Shown: one piece after another, positions 1-51,516 of the stretch
How the letters are laid out: each line of letters starts with the position of its first letter
How positions within the stretch are numbered: the stretch's first letter is position 1
Origin: a virus
Lineage: Duplodnaviria > Caudoviricetes
Direction: 5' to 3' (one strand)
Virus record (IMG/VR): IMGVR_UViG_3300032261_000007
Location: 1 to 55,954 of that record
DNA: 55,954 nucleotides
Translations under genes and position numbers: made by a program
Notes under the pieces: model-generated
The model's database searches: none
What the model was told of the DNA's origin: nothing
Seen by the model: only the letters and a program-made list of their open reading frames with translations

Positions 1-1355
1 ATCGCGTCAGAGGCGGCGACAACCGTATGCGATCCAACCGTGGTATTGCGACTGGAATTGAAAGCAATACGACACGTACCCTGTGAGTTGTTCGCGCCCC
101 ATCCGTTCAATGCTAACGATGCGGCACTGGTGCTGTTCTGTAAGCCAGACGTATTAACGTCAATCCAACAACCGGAAATGCTGTTCAGACTCGTGCCGAT
201 AACGACCTTGCCGTCGGAGTTGATCTTAAGTCGAGTCTGCGGCGTACCGCTGCCGCTTGGCGAGACCTGCAACAATAGAATGCCAGAAACGCTGCCAGCG
301 GTTGGCGCGACATCGTTCTGAACGATGATCGCCGCCGCCTGTTGAAAAACCGGAGTAGCGCTCGCATCAACACCGTAAAAACTGAGTTGGCCTAATTGAG
401 CACCGCCGGAAATGGTCGTCATCGTGCCGATGGTAGTTCCCGCACTCTTATTAAATACGAGAACAGTTGGGTTGCTGCTGTTATCCCAACGATATAGCGA
501 CAGCGGGCCGTTCTGCGTCGTGCGATGCATCTCCACCAGATTTGCGCCAATACTGCCGCTGCCCGCGCCGCCGCTAAAAATGCTGTAGCCGTTATGATCG
601 AACCGCACGACTTCGTTATTGTCGGCGGTCGCCGACGACGTTTGAATCGACAGATAACCCGGCACGTGGCCCGTCGTCGGCGTCGCGTCAACGCCGATAT
701 AGAATCGCGCCGCGTTCTGGAAGCCGGTGCCGTCGGTGCCGCAAAACGTCAGTTGTGCGATACCCGAGCCGCTGGTCAGCGCGGTCATGGTGCCGATGGT
801 GGCACTGGCCGACATGCACATGAAGCAGCGAACTTCCGAGCCACCCCATCGGGTCAGCCCGAACGGTGCGGTGCCTGAGACATTGAGTGTCGGCGCATTG
901 TTTTGCGAACCTTGGCTGTAATAAGTGTAATTGCCGCCGAGCCAGAAATTGCCCGCGCCGTCGAGCCGCTGGCGTTCGGTCAGCGTGCCCGCCGTCATGG
1001 TCGAGAATCGCAAATCGAACGCTTCGGTGCCGGACGTGATGTTGGTCGATACGCAATCAATCGCACCGCCAATCTTGTAAGTCGGCGTGGCCGCGGTCTG
1101 GACTTCAAATTGCAGACCAGCACCAATGCCAATAGCGGGCGTGCCGGTAGTGCGATGCGAAAGGAAGGTGTTTCTGGTAACGGCGTTTGCCACGCTATTT
1201 GTGACGATTGACAGATATTGAAACTGCACGTTGCCGCTGGCATCGCGGTAAAACAGTTTGCCGTCAGCCTCGTTGATCGCGATCTGGCCAACCACCATTG
1301 ACGCGGGCGAGTTGCCCGTCGTGGTCGAATGCAGAATCTTGGTCGGGATCGTCAT
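1..1355 (-). CDS. Tail fibre protein, truncated by the window edge (absent from the ORF track)
   Basis: ATG at 1355 directly follows the stop of 1356..1796; frame read by hand stays open to position 1 (MTIPTKILHSTTTGNSPASMVVGQIAINEADGKLFY...). About 90-100 aa repeats of the type S.xTIGTMT...L.F.G.D...F..AA. Last gene of the tail module. Confidence 0.75.
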   Translation of the reverse strand, partial: MTIPTKILHSTTTGNSPASMVVGQIAINEADGKLFYRDASGNVQFQYLSIVTNSVANAVTRNTFLSHRTTGTPAIGIGAGLQFEVQTAATPTYKIGGAIDCVSTNITSGTEAFDLRFSTMTAGTLTERQRLDGAGNFWLGGNYTYYSQGSQNNAPTLNVSGTAPFGLTRWGGSEVRCFMCMSASATIGTMTALTSGSGIAQLTFCGTDGTGFQNAARFYIGVDATPTTGHVPGYLSIQTSSATADNNEVVRFDHNGYSIFSGGAGSGSIGANLVEMHRTTQNGPLSLYRWDNSSNPTVLVFNKSAGTTIGTMTTISGGAQLGQLSFYGVDASATPVFQQAAAIIVQNDVAPTAGSVSGILLLQVSPSGSGTPQTRLKINSDGKVVIGTSLNSISGCWIDVNTSGLQNSTSAASLALNGWGANNSQGTCRIAFNSSRNTTVGSHTVVAASDA

Positions 1356-4336: not shown

Positions 4337-5164
4337 TTAAGGGCTTCGGTTCAGGTGGCGGCGCGGATTAAGCATTGTCGGAATGAATTTGCCGAGCCAA
4401 TGCGGGTTGGTTTCCAGCGCTTGGAATAGCGGCGTGGGCGGTCCTATCGATGCCAACAGCGCCGGTTGCGCGCCAAGCAACACTTCGGTGCCGATCTGTG
4501 TCCAGACAATCAGTCCGGTCGGCTTGTTGCGCACGATGGTATTGTAAATGTCCTGATCGGTGACGCCGATCTCGGGCGTCTCGGTGGCGATGTACTGGAT
4601 CGCACCAACACCGTAGCCGCCAAGCGTCGGTGTGCCACCCCAACCTTGGACATAGGGCACGCCGGTCGAGCGCAGCGCGGCGCGCGAGACCTTGAGAAAG
4701 ACCTGACCGGGAAGCTGGATCGAGCCCCAACCGCCCGCCCGGCCGTAAGCAAAATTGCCTTCGCCATAGCCGCCCGCATCGAACGGATTCCATGGCTCGA
4801 AAATAAACGGCGGCACGGTCAGCAACAGCGTCAACGCATTCATCATGCCCTTGCGCGTCACCCGTTCGGCAAGGATGGCGTTGGTGATCTGAATGCGGAA
4901 ATTAGTGTCGTCAGTGGTGCCGCCCGCACCGCGTAACAGCGTGCGGTTCAGAAAATCGTAGGCAATCAGATCGAGGAAAATGCCGCTAGCGGTGGCGATG
5001 CGACTTTGCTGGCGGATGAAAATCAGCCACTGGTACAGCCACGCCATGCTGTCGGCCAAGCCGCCGAGCACCGCGTCGCGCAGCGGTGCGCCCCACATAA
5101 ACCAGCGGCCGGGGATTAGCTGCCGGACCCGGTGGACGATGTCCTGTGAGTCGCCGGTCGCCAC
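4337..5164 (-). CDS. Baseplate wedge subunit (gpI-like position)
   Basis: Directly downstream of baseplate J; RIATASGIFLDLIAYDFL motif typical of wedge proteins. Confidence 0.65.
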   Translation of the reverse strand: MATGDSQDIVHRVRQLIPGRWFMWGAPLRDAVLGGLADSMAWLYQWLIFIRQQSRIATASGIFLDLIAYDFLNRTLLRGAGGTTDDTNFRIQITNAILAERVTRKGMMNALTLLLTVPPFIFEPWNPFDAGGYGEGNFAYGRAGGWGSIQLPGQVFLKVSRAALRSTGVPYVQGWGGTPTLGGYGVGAIQYIATETPEIGVTDQDIYNTIVRNKPTGLIVWTQIGTEVLLGAQPALLASIGPPTPLFQALETNPHWLGKFIPTMLNPRRHLNRSP

Positions 5165-48027: not shown

Positions 48028-49068
48028 TCACGCAGCCTTCTCGACGACCTTGAACTCACCTTCGATGATCTTGCCACCGAAAGCCTCAAGCTCGTCGGCC
48101 CGATCGTAGGACTCGACGTCGTGCGCTGTCCGCGTCACCGCGTTGGCGATGCCCCACCGGGACAAGTCGCCACCGCTGATCAAGTGGCTCAGCACACTGC
48201 CGCGCTCGCCTTCGTTCAAGCTCAGCCGCTCGGCCAGCAACTCGACGGCCTTGACCGGATCGCCTTCGATCTTCTCACCAGCGGCTTCTTTCATCTTGCC
48301 GACTAGCTTGCTGAAGGTCTGCTCGGTGAGCACTGCCCGGACCACGTCCCTAGCTTTGAGCAGGAACGCTTTGTCGTCGGCCCGCAGCGTCTCGTCGGTC
48401 AGCATCTCGTAAACGTCTTCGGTCGTATCTGCGCGACTGCCGACGTGATACTTACGGAAACCGCCAACCGGGAAGCGCATGCCGTTCAGGCAGACCAGCC
48501 GGTGAGCGAACGGCCACACCGCCATCGCGCCGTTGCCGATCTCACCATTGGTGATCTCGATACCGGCTTCGACGATATCGCCGACCTTGATCTCGGATCG
48601 CAGGGTCGGGAGCGTTGCCTTCAAGTACATCCGCGAGTCGGTCAGTGCCAATGACTGGAACTGAAGCTCGGGATGAGTCTGAAACTCAGGCAGCACCGCG
48701 GCCAGCGTATCCTCGTGCTCGATCCGCTGATACCGATCGGACAAGAACGCTCGGACCCGACCGCGTAACACGCGGACCATCCGACGCTCGTGATCCTGCT
48801 TGAACCAACGATTGCAGTTAGCCGCGTACAGGTCCGGCGCTTCGGCGCGCATCTTGTCAGCGTACTTGGCCGGGATGCCAAGCCGCGTATCAAGCTGCCG
48901 GTGCGTGTAGTCATCCATTGGCCACGCGCCCTGACCGTTCACGGCCAGCGTCTTGCCGTCATCCTGTACGACTAGCTGACGCGAGTCGGCGATCATGTCG
49001 CGCTTTTGCGCGCGCGCATCTTCGACAGCCTGCGCCAATTCAATCACTGACTTGTACTGTGTTTTCAT
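48028..49068 (-). CDS. DUF932/DUF945-like phage-plasmid protein
   Basis: RAFLSDRY, N.E.G.G, RLVCLNGM, HVG and W...NAVT motifs; strong SD. Confidence 0.78.
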   Translation of the reverse strand: MKTQYKSVIELAQAVEDARAQKRDMIADSRQLVVQDDGKTLAVNGQGAWPMDDYTHRQLDTRLGIPAKYADKMRAEAPDLYAANCNRWFKQDHERRMVRVLRGRVRAFLSDRYQRIEHEDTLAAVLPEFQTHPELQFQSLALTDSRMYLKATLPTLRSEIKVGDIVEAGIEITNGEIGNGAMAVWPFAHRLVCLNGMRFPVGGFRKYHVGSRADTTEDVYEMLTDETLRADDKAFLLKARDVVRAVLTEQTFSKLVGKMKEAAGEKIEGDPVKAVELLAERLSLNEGERGSVLSHLISGGDLSRWGIANAVTRTAHDVESYDRADELEAFGGKIIEGEFKVVEKAA

Positions 49069-49125
49069 GGGATTTGGCTCCTTTCAGCCGGGTTGGTTAC
49101 CATTTGTGCCCTTTGCACAATGCAA

Positions 49126-49154
49126 ATATAAGCGCTGGTGGAACCGAATGCAAC
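49126..49154 (-). promoter_or_regulatory. Leftward sigma70-type promoter
   Basis: GTTGCA-N17-TTATAT on the minus strand, upstream of the DUF932-like gene. Confidence 0.55.
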
Positions 49155-49189
49155 CCCAAAAACCCTGATTTTGCAGCCTATTAGGCCCC

Positions 49190-49218
49190 CTTGTATTCTA
49201 GGACCAGTGGTCCTATAT
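49190..49218 (+). promoter_or_regulatory. Rightward sigma70-type promoter with overlapping palindromic operator
   Basis: CTTGTA-N17-CTATAT (alphaproteobacterial consensus CTTGAC-N17-CTATAT); perfect TAGGACCA-G-TGGTCCTA at 49199-49215. Confidence 0.7.
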
Positions 49219-49221
49219 CTA

Positions 49222-49560
49222 AGGTGCAGGTCGGCAGTACCGGGGCGGATGCCCCTCGTGGCCGGTTCCCGGGACCCCTTCTTCCTGCTTCTCCACGGCG
49301 CGCGAAGAGCGGCCGTCACCAGTTCCGCCAGTCGGGCGGGGCGAGAAGGTTCCGGGCGGGATCAAGCCCCATTGAGCCACGGAATCATTGCGGTCTGCCC
49401 GCTGTAACGACGGCCGAGTCGGCCAAGCCACTGAAGACTCTTTCTTTGTGTGCACTTCGGTGCTCGCAAAGAAAGGGTCGTAACCTTTGCGGCGGGACAG
49501 CTTCGAGCCCGCCGTTCATTGGGCGGGTTACTCCCGCCCCGCGATTTCCAGTCTGAACCT
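49222..49560 (+). ncRNA. Structured ~340-nt leader or ncRNA of unknown family
   Basis: Ends pair (AGGTGCAG/CTGAACCT); nested helices; UUCG-capped long hairpin; no SD-led ORF. Confidence 0.55.
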
Positions 49561-49586
49561 TCTTCACCCAACCAACGGAGTCCTGA

Positions 49587-49823
49587 ATGTCTGCCTTCAA
49601 ATCGCATCTGAAGTCGATCGCCAAAGCCGTTTCTTGGCGGTTCGTCGGCGCGCTCGACAGCTTCGCGATTGCCTATCTCGTCACCGGCCATGCCGGTGCC
49701 GCGGCGGGCTTCGTCGGCTTCGAGATCGCCACCAAGAGCCTCTGGTACTACTTGCACGAGCGCGCTTGGGAGCATCCCGTCCTGGTGAAAGCGTTCGGCA
49801 AAGCGCCGAACGCTGCTCACTAA
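49587..49823 (+). CDS. DUF2061-like small membrane protein
   Basis: SIAKAVSWR..D....Y..TG..E..TK..YY.HER.W. Confidence 0.8.
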   Translation: MSAFKSHLKSIAKAVSWRFVGALDSFAIAYLVTGHAGAAAGFVGFEIATKSLWYYLHERAWEHPVLVKAFGKAPNAAH

Positions 49824-49854
49824 TCCCCACCATCAACCAACAGGGAGTCAAGCA

Positions 49855-49938
49855 ATGCTTGCTTTCTTGAAGTGGGTGTTCACGACCGACGAAGTAGTTC
49901 CTTCGCCGGTCTTCGCCGAGATCATGTCGGCGAAGTGA
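49855..49938 (+). CDS. 27-aa peptide
   Basis: GGGAG SD; MLAFLKWVFTTDEVVPSPVFAEIMSAK. Confidence 0.45.
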   Translation: MLAFLKWVFTTDEVVPSPVFAEIMSAK

Positions 49939-49983
49939 TCACTAAGGGCGGCCTTCGGGCCGCCTCATAGTGTTCACAGTTTT

Positions 49984-50825
49984 TGCCGATCGAGCGTGCG
50001 CACGCTGTGTGACGGTCGGCTACGTTCTTGCTTCGCCTTGGGTGGGTCAAGGCTACAGCGACCGGCAGAGAAAAACATCTGAGTACGAGTCGCAGAGCGG
50101 AGTGGAAATCTCCGCACAGTTCGAACGGCGCACGGTCGCCGTAAGCGTGAAGCCTATAGGGCAGGATGCCTTGGGCTGGTGATCGCATCCGTGACGCCGC
50201 GCGGGCGGCGACAGCGTCGGCCGACGCACCCGCATCAATTCGGGGCGTTAGTGCAGCGGCCAAGCACGTCGGTCCCTCAAACCGAAAACGCCGGGTTCGA
50301 GTCCCGCACGCCCTACCAAAACGACGAGCGTGGTCCGTACCGGCAAGTGAAAGACCTTGCCACGGAGTACTCAGCGCAAGCTGCGAAGCCACGACCGGCC
50401 CGCCAATGGCTTGAGGGCGGGCACCTTAAATCATCTGCACCACGTAAGAGTCCGGCCCAAAAGAGCCGCTAACAAACGAGTATCGGCTAAGCGCCGACGG
50501 CGGGGATAAGCTGGCACGTAGCGTGGCAGGCGCGAGCCTAACGACCACTGTTGCGGTGCAGATAAAGACGCAAGCGTTCGTTCGAGCAGCGAGCCCGGTC
50601 ACCGCGAACCCAAAGCGGCCCGGGCGGCAGACCCGGCTTTTGCCTGCAGGAAACCCACTGCCGAACGACGCGGAGCTTGCGGGGAACCACCGGCCGATCG
50701 GAATTGCCCAACGGGCCAAACGGGATCGGCGGTTGGTTTCGGCGGGGCGTTCCGGCCTATGGCCGTGCGGTCAAACCGCAGCCTTGCACGCTGGCGTCGC
50801 GTGCAACGCCCCACCGATACCAACC
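49984..50825 (+). ncRNA. Large ornate structured RNA candidate (GOLLD-like or novel) containing a tRNA
   Basis: About 840 nt with no credible gene; many hairpins and GNRA loops; long-range pairings. Confidence 0.6.
50242..50318 (+). tRNA. tRNA-Glu(CUC), atypical
   Basis: Acceptor GGGGCGT/ACGCCCT, D arm GTGC/GCAC, anticodon stem TCGGT/ACCGA with loop CC-CTC-AA, GTTCGAG T loop, encoded CCA. Confidence 0.8.
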
Positions 50826-50842
50826 AACCACAGGAGTCTTCG

Positions 50843-51187
50843 ATGACCACCCGAAAGGACAAGCGCCGGGCTCGTTTCACCCGTGGTGCGCCGTTGTTTA
50901 AGTGCAACGTCTGCCACCGGCTGACCCGCAACCCGGACCACAGCGGCACGATGCTGTGTGCCGAGTGCTATGAGCTTGCCGGGCTCGACAACTACGTGAA
51001 CGACAACGGCATGGTGCTCGACGCCAAGATCGTCGCCGAGCGCGATGCGCTGTTCGCTGACGCGGTCAAGCACGGCGGCGACGGCGAGCGCATCAAGAAG
51101 TGCTGCGACTATCTCTGGCCCGACGAGGATCAATTCGCGATCCCCGCCGACCTTTCTATTCCCGCGTTCCTGAAGCGGGCAGCCTGA
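50843..51187 (+). CDS. Zn-finger early protein
   Basis: AGGAG SD; CNVC...CAEC. Confidence 0.65.
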   Translation: MTTRKDKRRARFTRGAPLFKCNVCHRLTRNPDHSGTMLCAECYELAGLDNYVNDNGMVLDAKIVAERDALFADAVKHGGDGERIKKCCDYLWPDEDQFAIPADLSIPAFLKRAA

Positions 51188-51199
51188 AGGAGCCAAATC

Positions 51200-51364
51200 A
51201 TGACACCGCAATACTGGTACTGCGAGGATTGCGATCAGGTCTACCGACCCTTGTGGGCCGATGACCGATCGTTGCCGCGGGCACCGCGCGATCTGCGCTG
51301 CTCGGACTGCGGCAAGAAACTAACGCCCTATCAGTATCCCAAATACGAAGGAGCCAAGCCATGA
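51200..51364 (+). CDS. Zn-ribbon peptide (54 aa)
   Basis: GAAGGAG SD; CEDC...CSDC. Confidence 0.55.
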   Translation: MTPQYWYCEDCDQVYRPLWADDRSLPRAPRDLRCSDCGKKLTPYQYPKYEGAKP

Positions 51365-51516
51365 ACGTCAACGATCTGGCGCGCTGGATCGTGGAGCACG
51401 GTGCCGACAAACCGGCCGAGCAGCCGGAAGTCGGCACCCCGCTTTATCTGCCGGTGCCCGAGTACATTCCAACCCCAACCAAAAAGGAGATCGATTATGA
51501 AATCGACTATGCCTGA
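51361..51516 (+). CDS. Small hypothetical protein (51 aa)
   Basis: GAAGGAG SD; ATGA overlap with the upstream stop. Confidence 0.5.
   Translation: MNVNDLARWIVEHGADKPAEQPEVGTPLYLPVPEYIPTPTKKEIDYEIDYA

What the first reader, a model, noticed from the sequence alone, without database searches (positions are those of the whole stretch)
49984..50825. Large ornate ncRNA candidate (~840 nt) with an embedded tRNA
Seen: the longest gene-free stretch in the window, almost entirely helical: GCGGAG/CTCCGC, GGCAAG/CTTGCC, GCCCGCC/GGCGGGC, CAGC-GCAA-GCTG, AGGC-GCGA-GCCT, long-range ATCTGCACC (50433-50441)/GGTGCAGAT (50555-50563), three GAGTA motifs, and CTGAGTAC (50079-50086)/GTACTCAG (50367-50374), which could pair across the tRNA. 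Established: GOLLD and ROOL are very large phage-associated RNAs linked to tRNAs. Inference: a divergent GOLLD-like or new giant RNA in an alphaproteobacterial phage.
Basis: partly seen in the sequence, partly recalled or inferred. Interest (0 to 1): 0.85.

Follow-up and report, generated by a model that had tools for sequence, protein, structure and literature searches.

The report
New small structured phage RNA
The 840-base gap is not one giant RNA but a patchwork of non-coding pieces, one of which is a 131-base folded RNA conserved in ten uncultivated phages, matching no catalogued RNA family and of unknown function.

Summary
As exact inverted repeats they are no more frequent than chance. 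The 5' 258 nt fold no better than shuffles.

No Rfam 15 family matches except tRNA-Glu(CUC) at 50242-50318. GOLLD and ROOL give nothing even at E<=10.

One piece is real. I found it in 9 other uncultivated phage or metagenome contigs, and the 6 records searched whole hold one copy each. On 10 sequences, 18 of 36 pairs show compensatory changes and 94.7% of cells pair, against 31-56% when partners are slid. Pairing favours the + strand.

The tRNA and the flanks are not conserved. Two further modules (50575-50730) are shared with one relative only.

Verdict: a mosaic non-coding region holding a new, compact structured RNA family, not a GOLLD-like giant RNA. Function is unknown. My best guess is a stand-alone RNA cut from early transcripts. 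A cis-regulatory leader is the main rival. Expression could not be tested.

The parts
49946..49965 (+). GC-rich hairpin (GGGCGGCC-TTCG-GGCCGCC) directly after the small peptide ORF that ends at 49939, followed by CATAGTGTTCAC. It marks the upstream edge of the non-coding region. Analogous hairpins stand at the same place in L002, L005, L085 and L086.
   Evidence: Read from the sequence. It was not called as a terminator by the scan. In L085 the analogous hairpin is followed by TTTTGTTAT. Function is inferred.
49970..50241 (+). Lineage-specific 5' non-coding segment
   Evidence: No homolog in any of the fetched loci. It folds no better than shuffles (z -0.77 and -1.24). No Pfam or PHROG hit for the overlapping ORFs that were scanned.
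50242..50318 (+). tRNA-Glu, anticodon CUC, with encoded CCA
   Evidence: ARAGORN. Rfam tRNA 51.7 bits, cut-off 29. Absent at this position in the other 9 loci.
50319..50432 (+). 114-nt spacer with three local hairpins (GGCAAG/CTTGCC, CAGC-GCAA-GCTG, GCCCGCC/GGCGGGC). Lineage-specific.
   Evidence: Predicted fold z -2.28, with 6 of 200 shuffles as good. No homolog, so no covariation test is possible.
50433..50563 (+). Conserved core: a 131-nt three-way-junction RNA. P1 50434-50441/50555-50562. Arm P2-P3-P4 with conserved internal loops. Arm P5-P6.
   Evidence: Covariance models R1 and R2 score it at 162.7 and 145.7 bits. 10 members. 18 of 36 pairs have compensatory changes and 94.7% of cells pair, against 31-56% when slid. 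Pairing is 94.7% on the + strand and 86.9% on the - strand. No frame is open in all members.
50575..50672 (+). Module 2: a long-range helix (GCGTTCGTTCGAGCAG / CTGCCGAACGACGC) enclosing two hairpins. Shared only with L005.
   Evidence: RNAalifold on 2 sequences. In the 13-pair outer helix, 4 pairs changed on both sides, 2 on one side and 0 are broken. blastn gives 72% identity to L005 only. The MFE alone is unremarkable (z -1.17).
50693..50730 (+). Module 3: hairpin CCGATCG...GGGATCGG. Shared with L005, invariant.
   Evidence: Alignment and fold. There is no variation, so no covariation evidence.
50731..50825 (+). Very stable 3' domain: 21-nt inverted repeat arms (90% complementary) enclosing three hairpins, ending 7 nt before the ribosome-binding site.
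   Evidence: the repeat finder I1. z -5.12 for 50686-50830, with 0 of 200 shuffles as good. L005 has a different long helix at the same position (read). Not conserved in sequence.
50843..51187 (+). First downstream gene: a 114-aa Cys-rich protein preceded by AGGAG.
   Evidence: ORF list. phrog_3633, unknown function, E 1.3e-07. GC3 0.83.

Best explanation
SHOWN. The gap 49970-50842 is a non-coding stretch in the rightward block of small genes of an uncultivated tailed phage. It is a mosaic. It holds a real tRNA-Glu(CUC), lineage-specific filler, two structured modules shared with one close relative, and one widely conserved unit at 50433-50563. That unit is a 131-143-nt RNA with a closing helix P1 and two arms (P2-P3-P4 and P5-P6). 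Its helices covary while the junction and internal-loop nucleotides stay nearly fixed. It occurs once in each of the 6 records searched whole. It always lies on the same strand as the gene that follows, in otherwise unrelated gene neighbourhoods. It matches no Rfam 15 family.

INFERRED. The core is a self-contained RNA gene module, in the way a phage tRNA is. It is transcribed as part of a polycistronic message and cut or trimmed back to the stable P1-closed fold. In some phages a neighbouring tRNA or tRNA-like minihelix supplies an RNase P / RNase Z site. The released RNA then acts in trans, through a specific tertiary fold that binds a host or phage factor. The other pieces of the window's gap are not part of one conserved giant RNA.
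For: Family and structure. 10 of 10 sources gave one hit each at 70-163 bits. On A9, 18 of 36 pairs and 54 cells have changes on both sides, and 94.7% of cells are paired. 0 of 500 shuffles reach four of the five measures and 1 of 500 reaches the fifth. Slid controls give 31-56% paired and 2-5 such pairs. P1 is UCUGCAC/GUGCAGA in the window but CCGAGC/GCUCGG, CCGGGC/GCCCGG, CCAGUC/GACUGG and CCCUAC/GUAGGG in others, as read directly.

Strand. 31 G.U cells; 94.7% paired on + against 86.9% on -.

Not coding. Member lengths are 130-143 nt. The window copy has stops in all three + frames and L087 has stops in all three - frames.

Self-contained. In L088 the core starts 8 nt after a stop codon and ends about 40 nt before the next start, in an intergenic region of about 185 nt. 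No protein family within +/-9 kb is shared by more than 4 of the 10 loci. Each of the 5 other viral records searched whole has exactly one copy, and so does the window.

Processing hints. A tRNA lies 114 nt upstream in the window. An acceptor/T-arm minihelix with CCA lies 4 nt upstream in L002 (22.9 bits). A similar one lies about 220 nt upstream in L086 (17.5 bits). The 12 nt on either side of P1 are 54-55% A+T against a 38-45% background. In L091 an intrinsic terminator starts 15 nt after P1.

Not in catalogues. Rfam. GenBank phages.
Against: No expression data exist: no RNA run holds the stretch. So transcription, ends and processing are all inferred.

Thermodynamics alone do not single out the core. 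z is -2.20 for the window + strand and -1.20 for L002, and the - strand folds at least as well.

The alignments used for pair counts were fitted to my own structure, which leans the counts towards it. Helix 2 is the weakest, at 85.7% paired.

Seven of the nine relatives came from exact pattern scans built on conserved blocks. The invariance of those blocks is therefore partly by construction, and the family size is a lower bound.

The tRNA or minihelix link holds in only 3 of 10 loci, and two of those three are below Rfam's cut-off. The A+T enrichment is mild. In L085 and L086 the core ends 5-18 nt from the ribosome-binding site or start codon, which fits a cis-acting leader better. No binding partner is known or predicted.
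Confidence: 0.5

Rival explanations
1. Cis-acting leader element. The core stays on the mRNA and controls the genes that follow, either as a ligand- or protein-sensing aptamer or as a put-like RNA that modifies RNA polymerase to read through terminators.
For: By my reading of mechanical ORF lists, the core is co-oriented with, and upstream of, an ORF in 10 of 10 loci. It ends 13 nt before the ATG in L085 and 5-18 nt before the likely start in L086. Intrinsic terminators follow in L091 (+15) and L089 (+80). Near-invariant junction and loop nucleotides with covarying stems are typical of aptamers.
Against: The downstream genes are unrelated: Cys-rich small proteins, an AAA ATPase, and proteins of unknown family. 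Only 2 of 10 loci have a terminator within 400 nt, and neither overlaps P1. The Shine-Dalgarno sequence in L085 is not visibly sequestered. The distance to the next start ranges from about 5 to about 290 nt, with unrelated sequence in between.
Confidence: 0.25
2. One reading: the whole ~840 nt is one giant ornate RNA (GOLLD- or ROOL-like or a new class) with an embedded tRNA. The 131-nt core would be its conserved nucleus and the rest variable periphery.
For: The whole stretch folds better than shuffles (z -3.78). It has at least four structured parts beside the tRNA. [quoted passage not shown] Seven of the 10 loci have non-coding regions of about 340-900 nt around the core (my reading).
Against: No GOLLD or ROOL match even at E<=10. 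The 5' 272 nt, the tRNA and the spacer have no homolog in any fetched locus. The 5' 258 nt fold like shuffles. L088 carries the core in an intergenic region of about 185 nt. The other contigs share nothing but the core, apart from short terminator-like and T-arm matches.
Confidence: 0.07
3. The core is a new self-cleaving ribozyme that processes polycistronic phage transcripts.
For: Its size, its junction architecture with fixed unpaired nucleotides, its single copy, its scattered intergenic positions on the sense strand and the lack of conserved neighbour genes resemble the distribution of small ribozymes in phage genomes. That comparison is recalled, not tested.
Against: There is no similarity to any ribozyme family in Rfam. 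No cleavage site can be proposed. New ribozyme classes are rare.
Confidence: 0.08
4. A DNA-level element that works as folded single-stranded DNA or as a protein-binding site, such as a priming or initiation signal, an origin or a recombination site.
For: Compensatory changes would also preserve a DNA cruciform or ssDNA fold. The - strand folds as well thermodynamically. DUF932 neighbours in 3 loci recall plasmid leading regions, which carry ssDNA signals (recalled).
Against: 31 G.U cells make pairing strand-specific (94.7% against 86.9%). The orientation always follows transcription. There are no iterons or direct repeats. It is not next to a terminase or integrase gene in the window.
Confidence: 0.05

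Closest known systems
GOLLD and ROOL large ornate phage RNAs (Rfam families; description taken from passages of PMC12286853)
   Same: Phage-encoded, function unknown, sometimes next to or linked with tRNAs. GOLLD has a conserved part and a variable part.
   Different: No covariance-model match. The conserved unit here is 131-143 nt, not 580-800+. The flanks are not conserved. The tRNA link holds in only 3 of 10 loci. Multimer formation is untested.
Catalogue of 8495 candidate structured RNAs from IMG/VR v3 (PMC10690425; passages seen, supplements closed)
   Same: Same data source and same kind of object: covarying intergenic motifs in uncultivated phages, mostly of unknown function.
   Different: Those candidates average 67 nt, with a range of 29-151. 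Whether this motif is among them cannot be checked, because the supplementary tables are closed. If it is listed, the motif is already catalogued but still uncharacterised.
Phage tRNA genes and tRNA-linked processed RNAs (general knowledge, recalled)
   Same: A compact, self-folding RNA module, single copy, embedded on the sense strand among unrelated genes. It is sometimes adjacent to a tRNA or to an acceptor/T-arm minihelix that could direct RNase P or RNase Z cleavage.
   Different: The core is not tRNA-like: no tRNA model hit on it. Its fold is a three-way junction with internal loops.
put RNAs of phage HK022 and other processive antitermination RNAs (recalled)
   Same: Structured RNA in phage operons, sense strand, acting without conserved downstream genes.
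   Different: put RNAs are about 70 nt with two stem-loops and come in two copies just after the early promoters. Here there is one copy, 131 nt or more, and in some loci it sits between ORFs far from any visible promoter. No sequence or model similarity was tested, since I know of no put model in Rfam.
tmRNA
   Same: In the window and L002 the core contains a short frame starting GCU AAC (Ala-Asn) and ending UAA. L002 also has a tRNA-like acceptor/T-arm just upstream.
   Different: ARAGORN finds no tmRNA. No tmRNA family matches in Rfam. The frame and its stop are not kept in L005, L085 or L086. Rejected.

Membership tests
GOLLD RNA | Match to the Rfam covariance model (conserved 3' domain) | tested here: not met
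   cmscan of the whole window at gathering threshold found only tRNA. cmscan of 49800-51000 at E<=10 found tRNA plus two chance hits, FourU and Xoo2, and no GOLLD.
GOLLD RNA | Length of about 800 nt conserved as one unit across homologs | tested here: not met
   Only 131 nt are shared by the 10 loci.
ROOL RNA | Match to the Rfam covariance model | tested here: not met
   No match.
GOLLD / ROOL | Homo-oligomeric RNA-only cage | not testable with these tools
   Needs cryo-EM or native gels of the transcript.
tRNA (for 50242-50318) | Cloverleaf with anticodon, score above the Rfam cut-off | tested here: met
   ARAGORN tRNA-Glu(ctc). RF00005 51.7 bits against a cut-off of 29.
Riboswitch (generic) | Conserved aptamer upstream of functionally coherent genes, with an expression platform that overlaps the aptamer | tested here: not met
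   A covarying, aptamer-like fold is present. But the downstream genes are unrelated, and a terminator is present in only 2 of 10 loci and does not overlap P1. Ligand binding is untestable here.
Any Rfam 15 family (4227 models) | Covariance-model match to the core | tested here: not met
   No hit overlaps the core in the window (E<=10), in L002 (E<=10) or in 8 further loci (E<=1).
tmRNA | tRNA-like domain plus a conserved tag reading frame. Detected by ARAGORN or Rfam. | tested here: not met
   The frame is not conserved.
Protein-coding gene | An open frame kept across homologs, codon-position bias, and family hits | tested here: not met

The most novel reading that the evidence does not exclude
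The 131-nt core is a new functional RNA class of soil phages with a defined tertiary fold. It could be a new aptamer that senses a host or infection signal, or a new self-cleaving ribozyme. In the window's phage it would have been built into a larger modular RNA together with a tRNA, echoing the conserved-core and variable-periphery plan of GOLLD.
Probability: 0.15. Interest if true: 0.8.

Novelty: new variant of a known kind. Interest (0 to 1): 0.5.

Why it matters
Phage genomes hold many conserved non-coding RNAs whose roles are unknown. Compact RNAs with fixed junction nucleotides and heavily covarying stems have in the past often proved to be aptamers, ribozymes or protein decoys. This one is well defined: 10 members, a testable secondary structure and a clear strand. 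It is absent from Rfam 15, from 50,697 GenBank phage records and, by two exact-pattern scans, from one genome for each of 185,579 prokaryote species. The window's phage stretch is held by soil DNA runs of 22 studies. The RNA is short enough for direct biochemical tests.

An apparently 'ornate' 840-nt gap can be a mosaic in which only one small module is under selection.

Tried and rejected
1. GOLLD, ROOL or any other Rfam family: no match.

2. tmRNA-like tag frame (ANK...RRRRG*) in the window and L002: rejected. The frame shifts and the stop is lost in L005, L085 and L086, and ARAGORN and Rfam are negative.

3. Conserved small ORF: rejected.

4. A promoter at the start of the gap: the sigma-70 scan found 0 sites in 49000-51500. 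I first read TTGACC...TATGTA in L085 and L086 as a promoter. On re-reading, TTGACC is the loop of a terminator-like hairpin. This is left open.

5. Mobile insertion of the tRNA block: no flanking direct repeats.

6. Conserved partner protein: none within +/-9 kb in more than 4 of the 10 loci.

7. Link to DUF932: of 80 metagenome loci encoding DUF932 relatives, only L005 has the core. Many of those contigs are too short to include the flank, so this is weak.

8. Cultured-phage homologs: blastn of the 911-nt gap gave no match. The window core gave only 27-nt chance hits at E=5 in Paenibacillus phages. The L089 core gave nothing.

9. Prokaryote genomes: two exact-pattern scans of genome contigs gave 0 hits. 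The second pattern matches only 5 of the 10 known members, so absence is not shown.

10. Metagenome DNA pattern: 0 hits.

11. Expression: no RNA holder is listed among the 24 runs. The Logan contigs of 4 soil DNA runs that I laid were identical fragments, with no variants or joints of use.

12. Microdiversity for covariation: none seen.

14. The supplementary tables of PMC10690425 are closed. I could not check whether the motif is already in that catalogue.

15. One literature search, using the terms phage, structured noncoding RNA, covariation, motif and intergenic, showed no paper describing this motif in its 20 listed titles and abstract starts. This is a thin basis for 'not in print'.

Full report
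WHAT THE WINDOW IS. The window is a 55,954-base IMG/VR virus record with an estimated completeness of 81%. It encodes a portal protein, a large terminase and a baseplate wedge protein on the - strand. Its terminase is at most 48% identical to those of cultured phages. The best matches are Dinoroseobacter, Roseobacter and Brevundimonas phages, but also cyanophages. From about 49.6 kb onwards a block of small genes runs on the + strand: a DUF2061 protein at 49587-49823, a 27-codon ORF ending at 49939, then the gap, then a 114-aa Cys-rich protein from 50843.

CHECKING THE OBSERVATION. The stretch is non-coding. Five ORFs that overlap it have no Pfam or PHROG hit. Those five and two more have GC3 of 0.55-0.68 against 0.67-0.83 in eight reference genes.

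The claim 'almost entirely helical, more than chance' holds only in part. The 842 nt fold better than dinucleotide shuffles on both strands (z -3.78 and -5.07, 20 shuffles each). Exact inverted repeats of 8 nt or more are not enriched: 7 observed against 8.8 +/- 3.7. The first 258 nt fold like shuffles (z -0.77 and -1.24). Only 50319-50432 (z -2.28) and especially 50686-50830 (z -5.12) stand out.

KNOWN FAMILIES. Rfam 15 finds only the tRNA at gathering thresholds over the whole window. At E<=10 on 49800-51000 it adds only two chance hits outside the gap's structured parts. There is no GOLLD, ROOL, tmRNA, riboswitch or ribozyme match.

HOMOLOGS. The DUF932 protein next door (48028-49068, - strand) led to one related IMG/VR contig, L002, at 76% protein identity. 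Between the two phages the gap is not conserved except for one block: window 50434-50566 matches L002 at 88%, higher than the 72-77% of the flanking coding DNA. L002 has no tRNA there.

A protein-alignment scan of metagenome contigs gave 80 loci. One of them, L005, carries the block again, together with 50564-50744. Pattern scans built on blocks shared by these copies found seven more IMG/VR contigs. A covariance model built from the window and L002 with a structure I proposed scores all ten at 70-163 bits, with one hit each in 10 of 10 sources. It finds nothing else in the other 79 metagenome loci. The rebuilt model R2 finds exactly one copy in each of five viral records searched whole and one in the window.

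THE FOLD. The core (window 50433-50563) has three parts. The second is an arm P2-P3-P4 with a large conserved internal loop.

On the ten sequences, 18 of 36 pairs and 54 cells carry changes on both sides, and 94.7% of 358 cells form standard pairs. None of 500 column shuffles reaches the observed value for four of the five measures, and 1 of 500 reaches it for the fifth. Sliding the 3' partners by 1-3 columns drops pairing to 31-56% and leaves 2-5 such pairs.

P1 is the clearest case, because five different sequences all stay complementary. The 31 G.U cells make the fold strand-specific: 94.7% paired on + against 86.9% on -.

Member lengths of 130-143 nt rule out a conserved ORF. So do the stops: the window copy has them in all three + frames and L087 in all three - frames.

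Three caveats apply:
- The alignments were fitted to my structure, and helix 2 is the weakest at 85.7% paired.
- The MFE of the core alone is not remarkable and does not choose a strand.
- The near-invariance of the blocks used as search patterns is partly by construction.

THE REST OF THE GAP. Cut into five pieces, only the core has homologs beyond L005. The 5' 272 nt, the tRNA and the 114-nt spacer match nothing in any fetched locus.

Window 50575-50672 forms a long-range helix around two hairpins. It is shared with L005, with 4 two-sided and 2 one-sided changes and no broken pair in 13 outer pairs (two sequences only). A hairpin at 50693-50730 is shared without variation.

The very stable 3' domain at 50731-50825 has no sequence homolog, although L005 carries a different long helix at the same place. 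Among the leaders of five contigs compared all-against-all, nothing but the core is shared, apart from short terminator-like and T-arm matches.

In L088 the core starts 8 nt after a stop codon and ends about 40 nt before the next start. The core therefore stands alone.

tRNA LINK. A true tRNA lies next to the core only in the window. L002 has an acceptor/T-arm minihelix followed by CCA just 4 nt upstream of the core (22.9 bits, below the cut-off of 29). L086 has a similar one about 220 nt upstream (17.5 bits). The other seven have none within reach. My T-loop regular expression missed the window's own tRNA, so it is not sensitive.

CONTEXT. By my reading of mechanical ORF lists, the core is on the same strand as the next ORF in 10 of 10 loci. 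The distance to that ORF ranges from about 5-18 nt (L085, L086) to about 290 nt.

The neighbours differ between loci. They are DUF932 and DUF2061 in three loci, an AAA / DUF3150 / DUF2201-VWA trio in two, and small proteins of unknown family elsewhere. No family within +/-9 kb is shared by more than 4 of the 10 loci.

Intrinsic terminators follow the core in only 2 of 10 loci, L091 at +15 and L089 at +80. The 12 nt on either side of P1 are mildly A+T-rich, 54-55% against a 38-45% background.

INTERPRETATION. What is shown is a new, compact, strand-specific structured RNA family in uncultivated phages. In this window it sits inside a mosaic of non-conserved or narrowly conserved non-coding pieces and a tRNA.

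How it works is inference. Single copy, self-containment, scattered neighbourhoods and occasional tRNA-like neighbours fit best with an RNA gene module that is released from polycistronic transcripts and acts in trans through its fold (0.5).

A cis-acting leader, whether aptamer or put-like, is the main rival (0.25). It is favoured by the two loci where the core abuts a start codon and disfavoured by the unrelated downstream genes and the lack of expression platforms.

EXPRESSION. Expression could not be examined. 23 runs of 22 studies, all labelled soil metagenome and taken to be DNA, hold the stretch, and none is on record as RNA. The contigs I laid were identical fragments.

COMPARISON AND NOVELTY. 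The family is not in Rfam 15. It was not found in 50,697 GenBank phage records. Two exact-pattern scans over one genome for each of 185,579 prokaryote species also found nothing.

A 2023 catalogue of 8495 candidate structured RNAs from IMG/VR v3 (PMC10690425; passages read) may already list it. Its supplements are closed, so I cannot tell.

GOLLD and ROOL share with it only the phage setting and the occasional tRNA neighbourhood (passages of PMC12286853). Membership fails on every feature that could be tested.

Noticed in passing
window 49069-49586: The divergent non-coding region between DUF932 (-) and DUF2061 (+) is at least as conserved as the genes: 79.5% identity to L002 over 49078-49445, against 72-76% for coding DNA. 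A near-invariant block at about 49265-49360 is shared by three phages. The region also holds the palindromes TTGCACAATGCAA and AGGACCAGTGGTCCT. It is an operator/promoter region or possibly a second conserved RNA.
   Followed up: partly
window 50843-51187; L005 141-350 (-): The 114-aa protein ends in ...IPAFLKRAA and the L005 69-aa protein ends in ...IPDFLKRAA. This resembles the conserved C-terminal peptide of FtsZ (recalled from memory, not tested) and might mark a cell-division-targeting phage protein.
   Followed up: no
L002 3983-4030 (-): A 48-nt tRNA-like minihelix (acceptor stem plus T arm, no D or anticodon arm) followed by CCA lies 4 nt upstream of the core. Rfam tRNA scores it at 22.9 bits, E 0.07, below the cut-off. 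L086 6446-6502 has a similar one at 17.5 bits.
   Followed up: partly
window ~49535-49565; L002 ~4445-4475 (-); L005 ~775-800 (-): The hairpin motif GTTCATTG-GGCGGGTT(A/G)CTCCCGCC stands upstream of the DUF2061 gene in the window and L002. In L005 it stands directly upstream of the RNA core. It looks like a small movable hairpin.
   Followed up: no
L088 1291-4873 (+); L089 4694-8329 (-): The core lies next to a three-gene set: an AAA (MoxR-like) ATPase, a weak DUF3150 match (21.8 bits, under Pfam's cut-off of 24.9) and a DUF2201 metallopeptidase/VWA protein. The set is downstream of the core in L088 and upstream of it in L089.
   Followed up: partly
window 49825-49850, 50826-50842 and other gene starts; L002, L005: Many genes of this phage group are preceded by a CA-rich stretch and GGAGTC (for example AACCAACAGGGAGTC and CCAACCACAGGAGTC). 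This looks like a conserved translation-initiation context. Read by eye.
   Followed up: no
window 49900-50900: 23 runs of 22 studies, all labelled soil metagenome and taken to be DNA, hold at least two thirds of the sampled words of this stretch. Six may be the source sample. The contigs laid from four runs were identical to the window.
   Followed up: partly
L005 5018-5092 (+): ARAGORN calls a tRNA with an undetermined anticodon here (Rfam tRNA 44.5 bits), on the strand opposite to the core, about 4.3 kb away in the locus.
   Followed up: no
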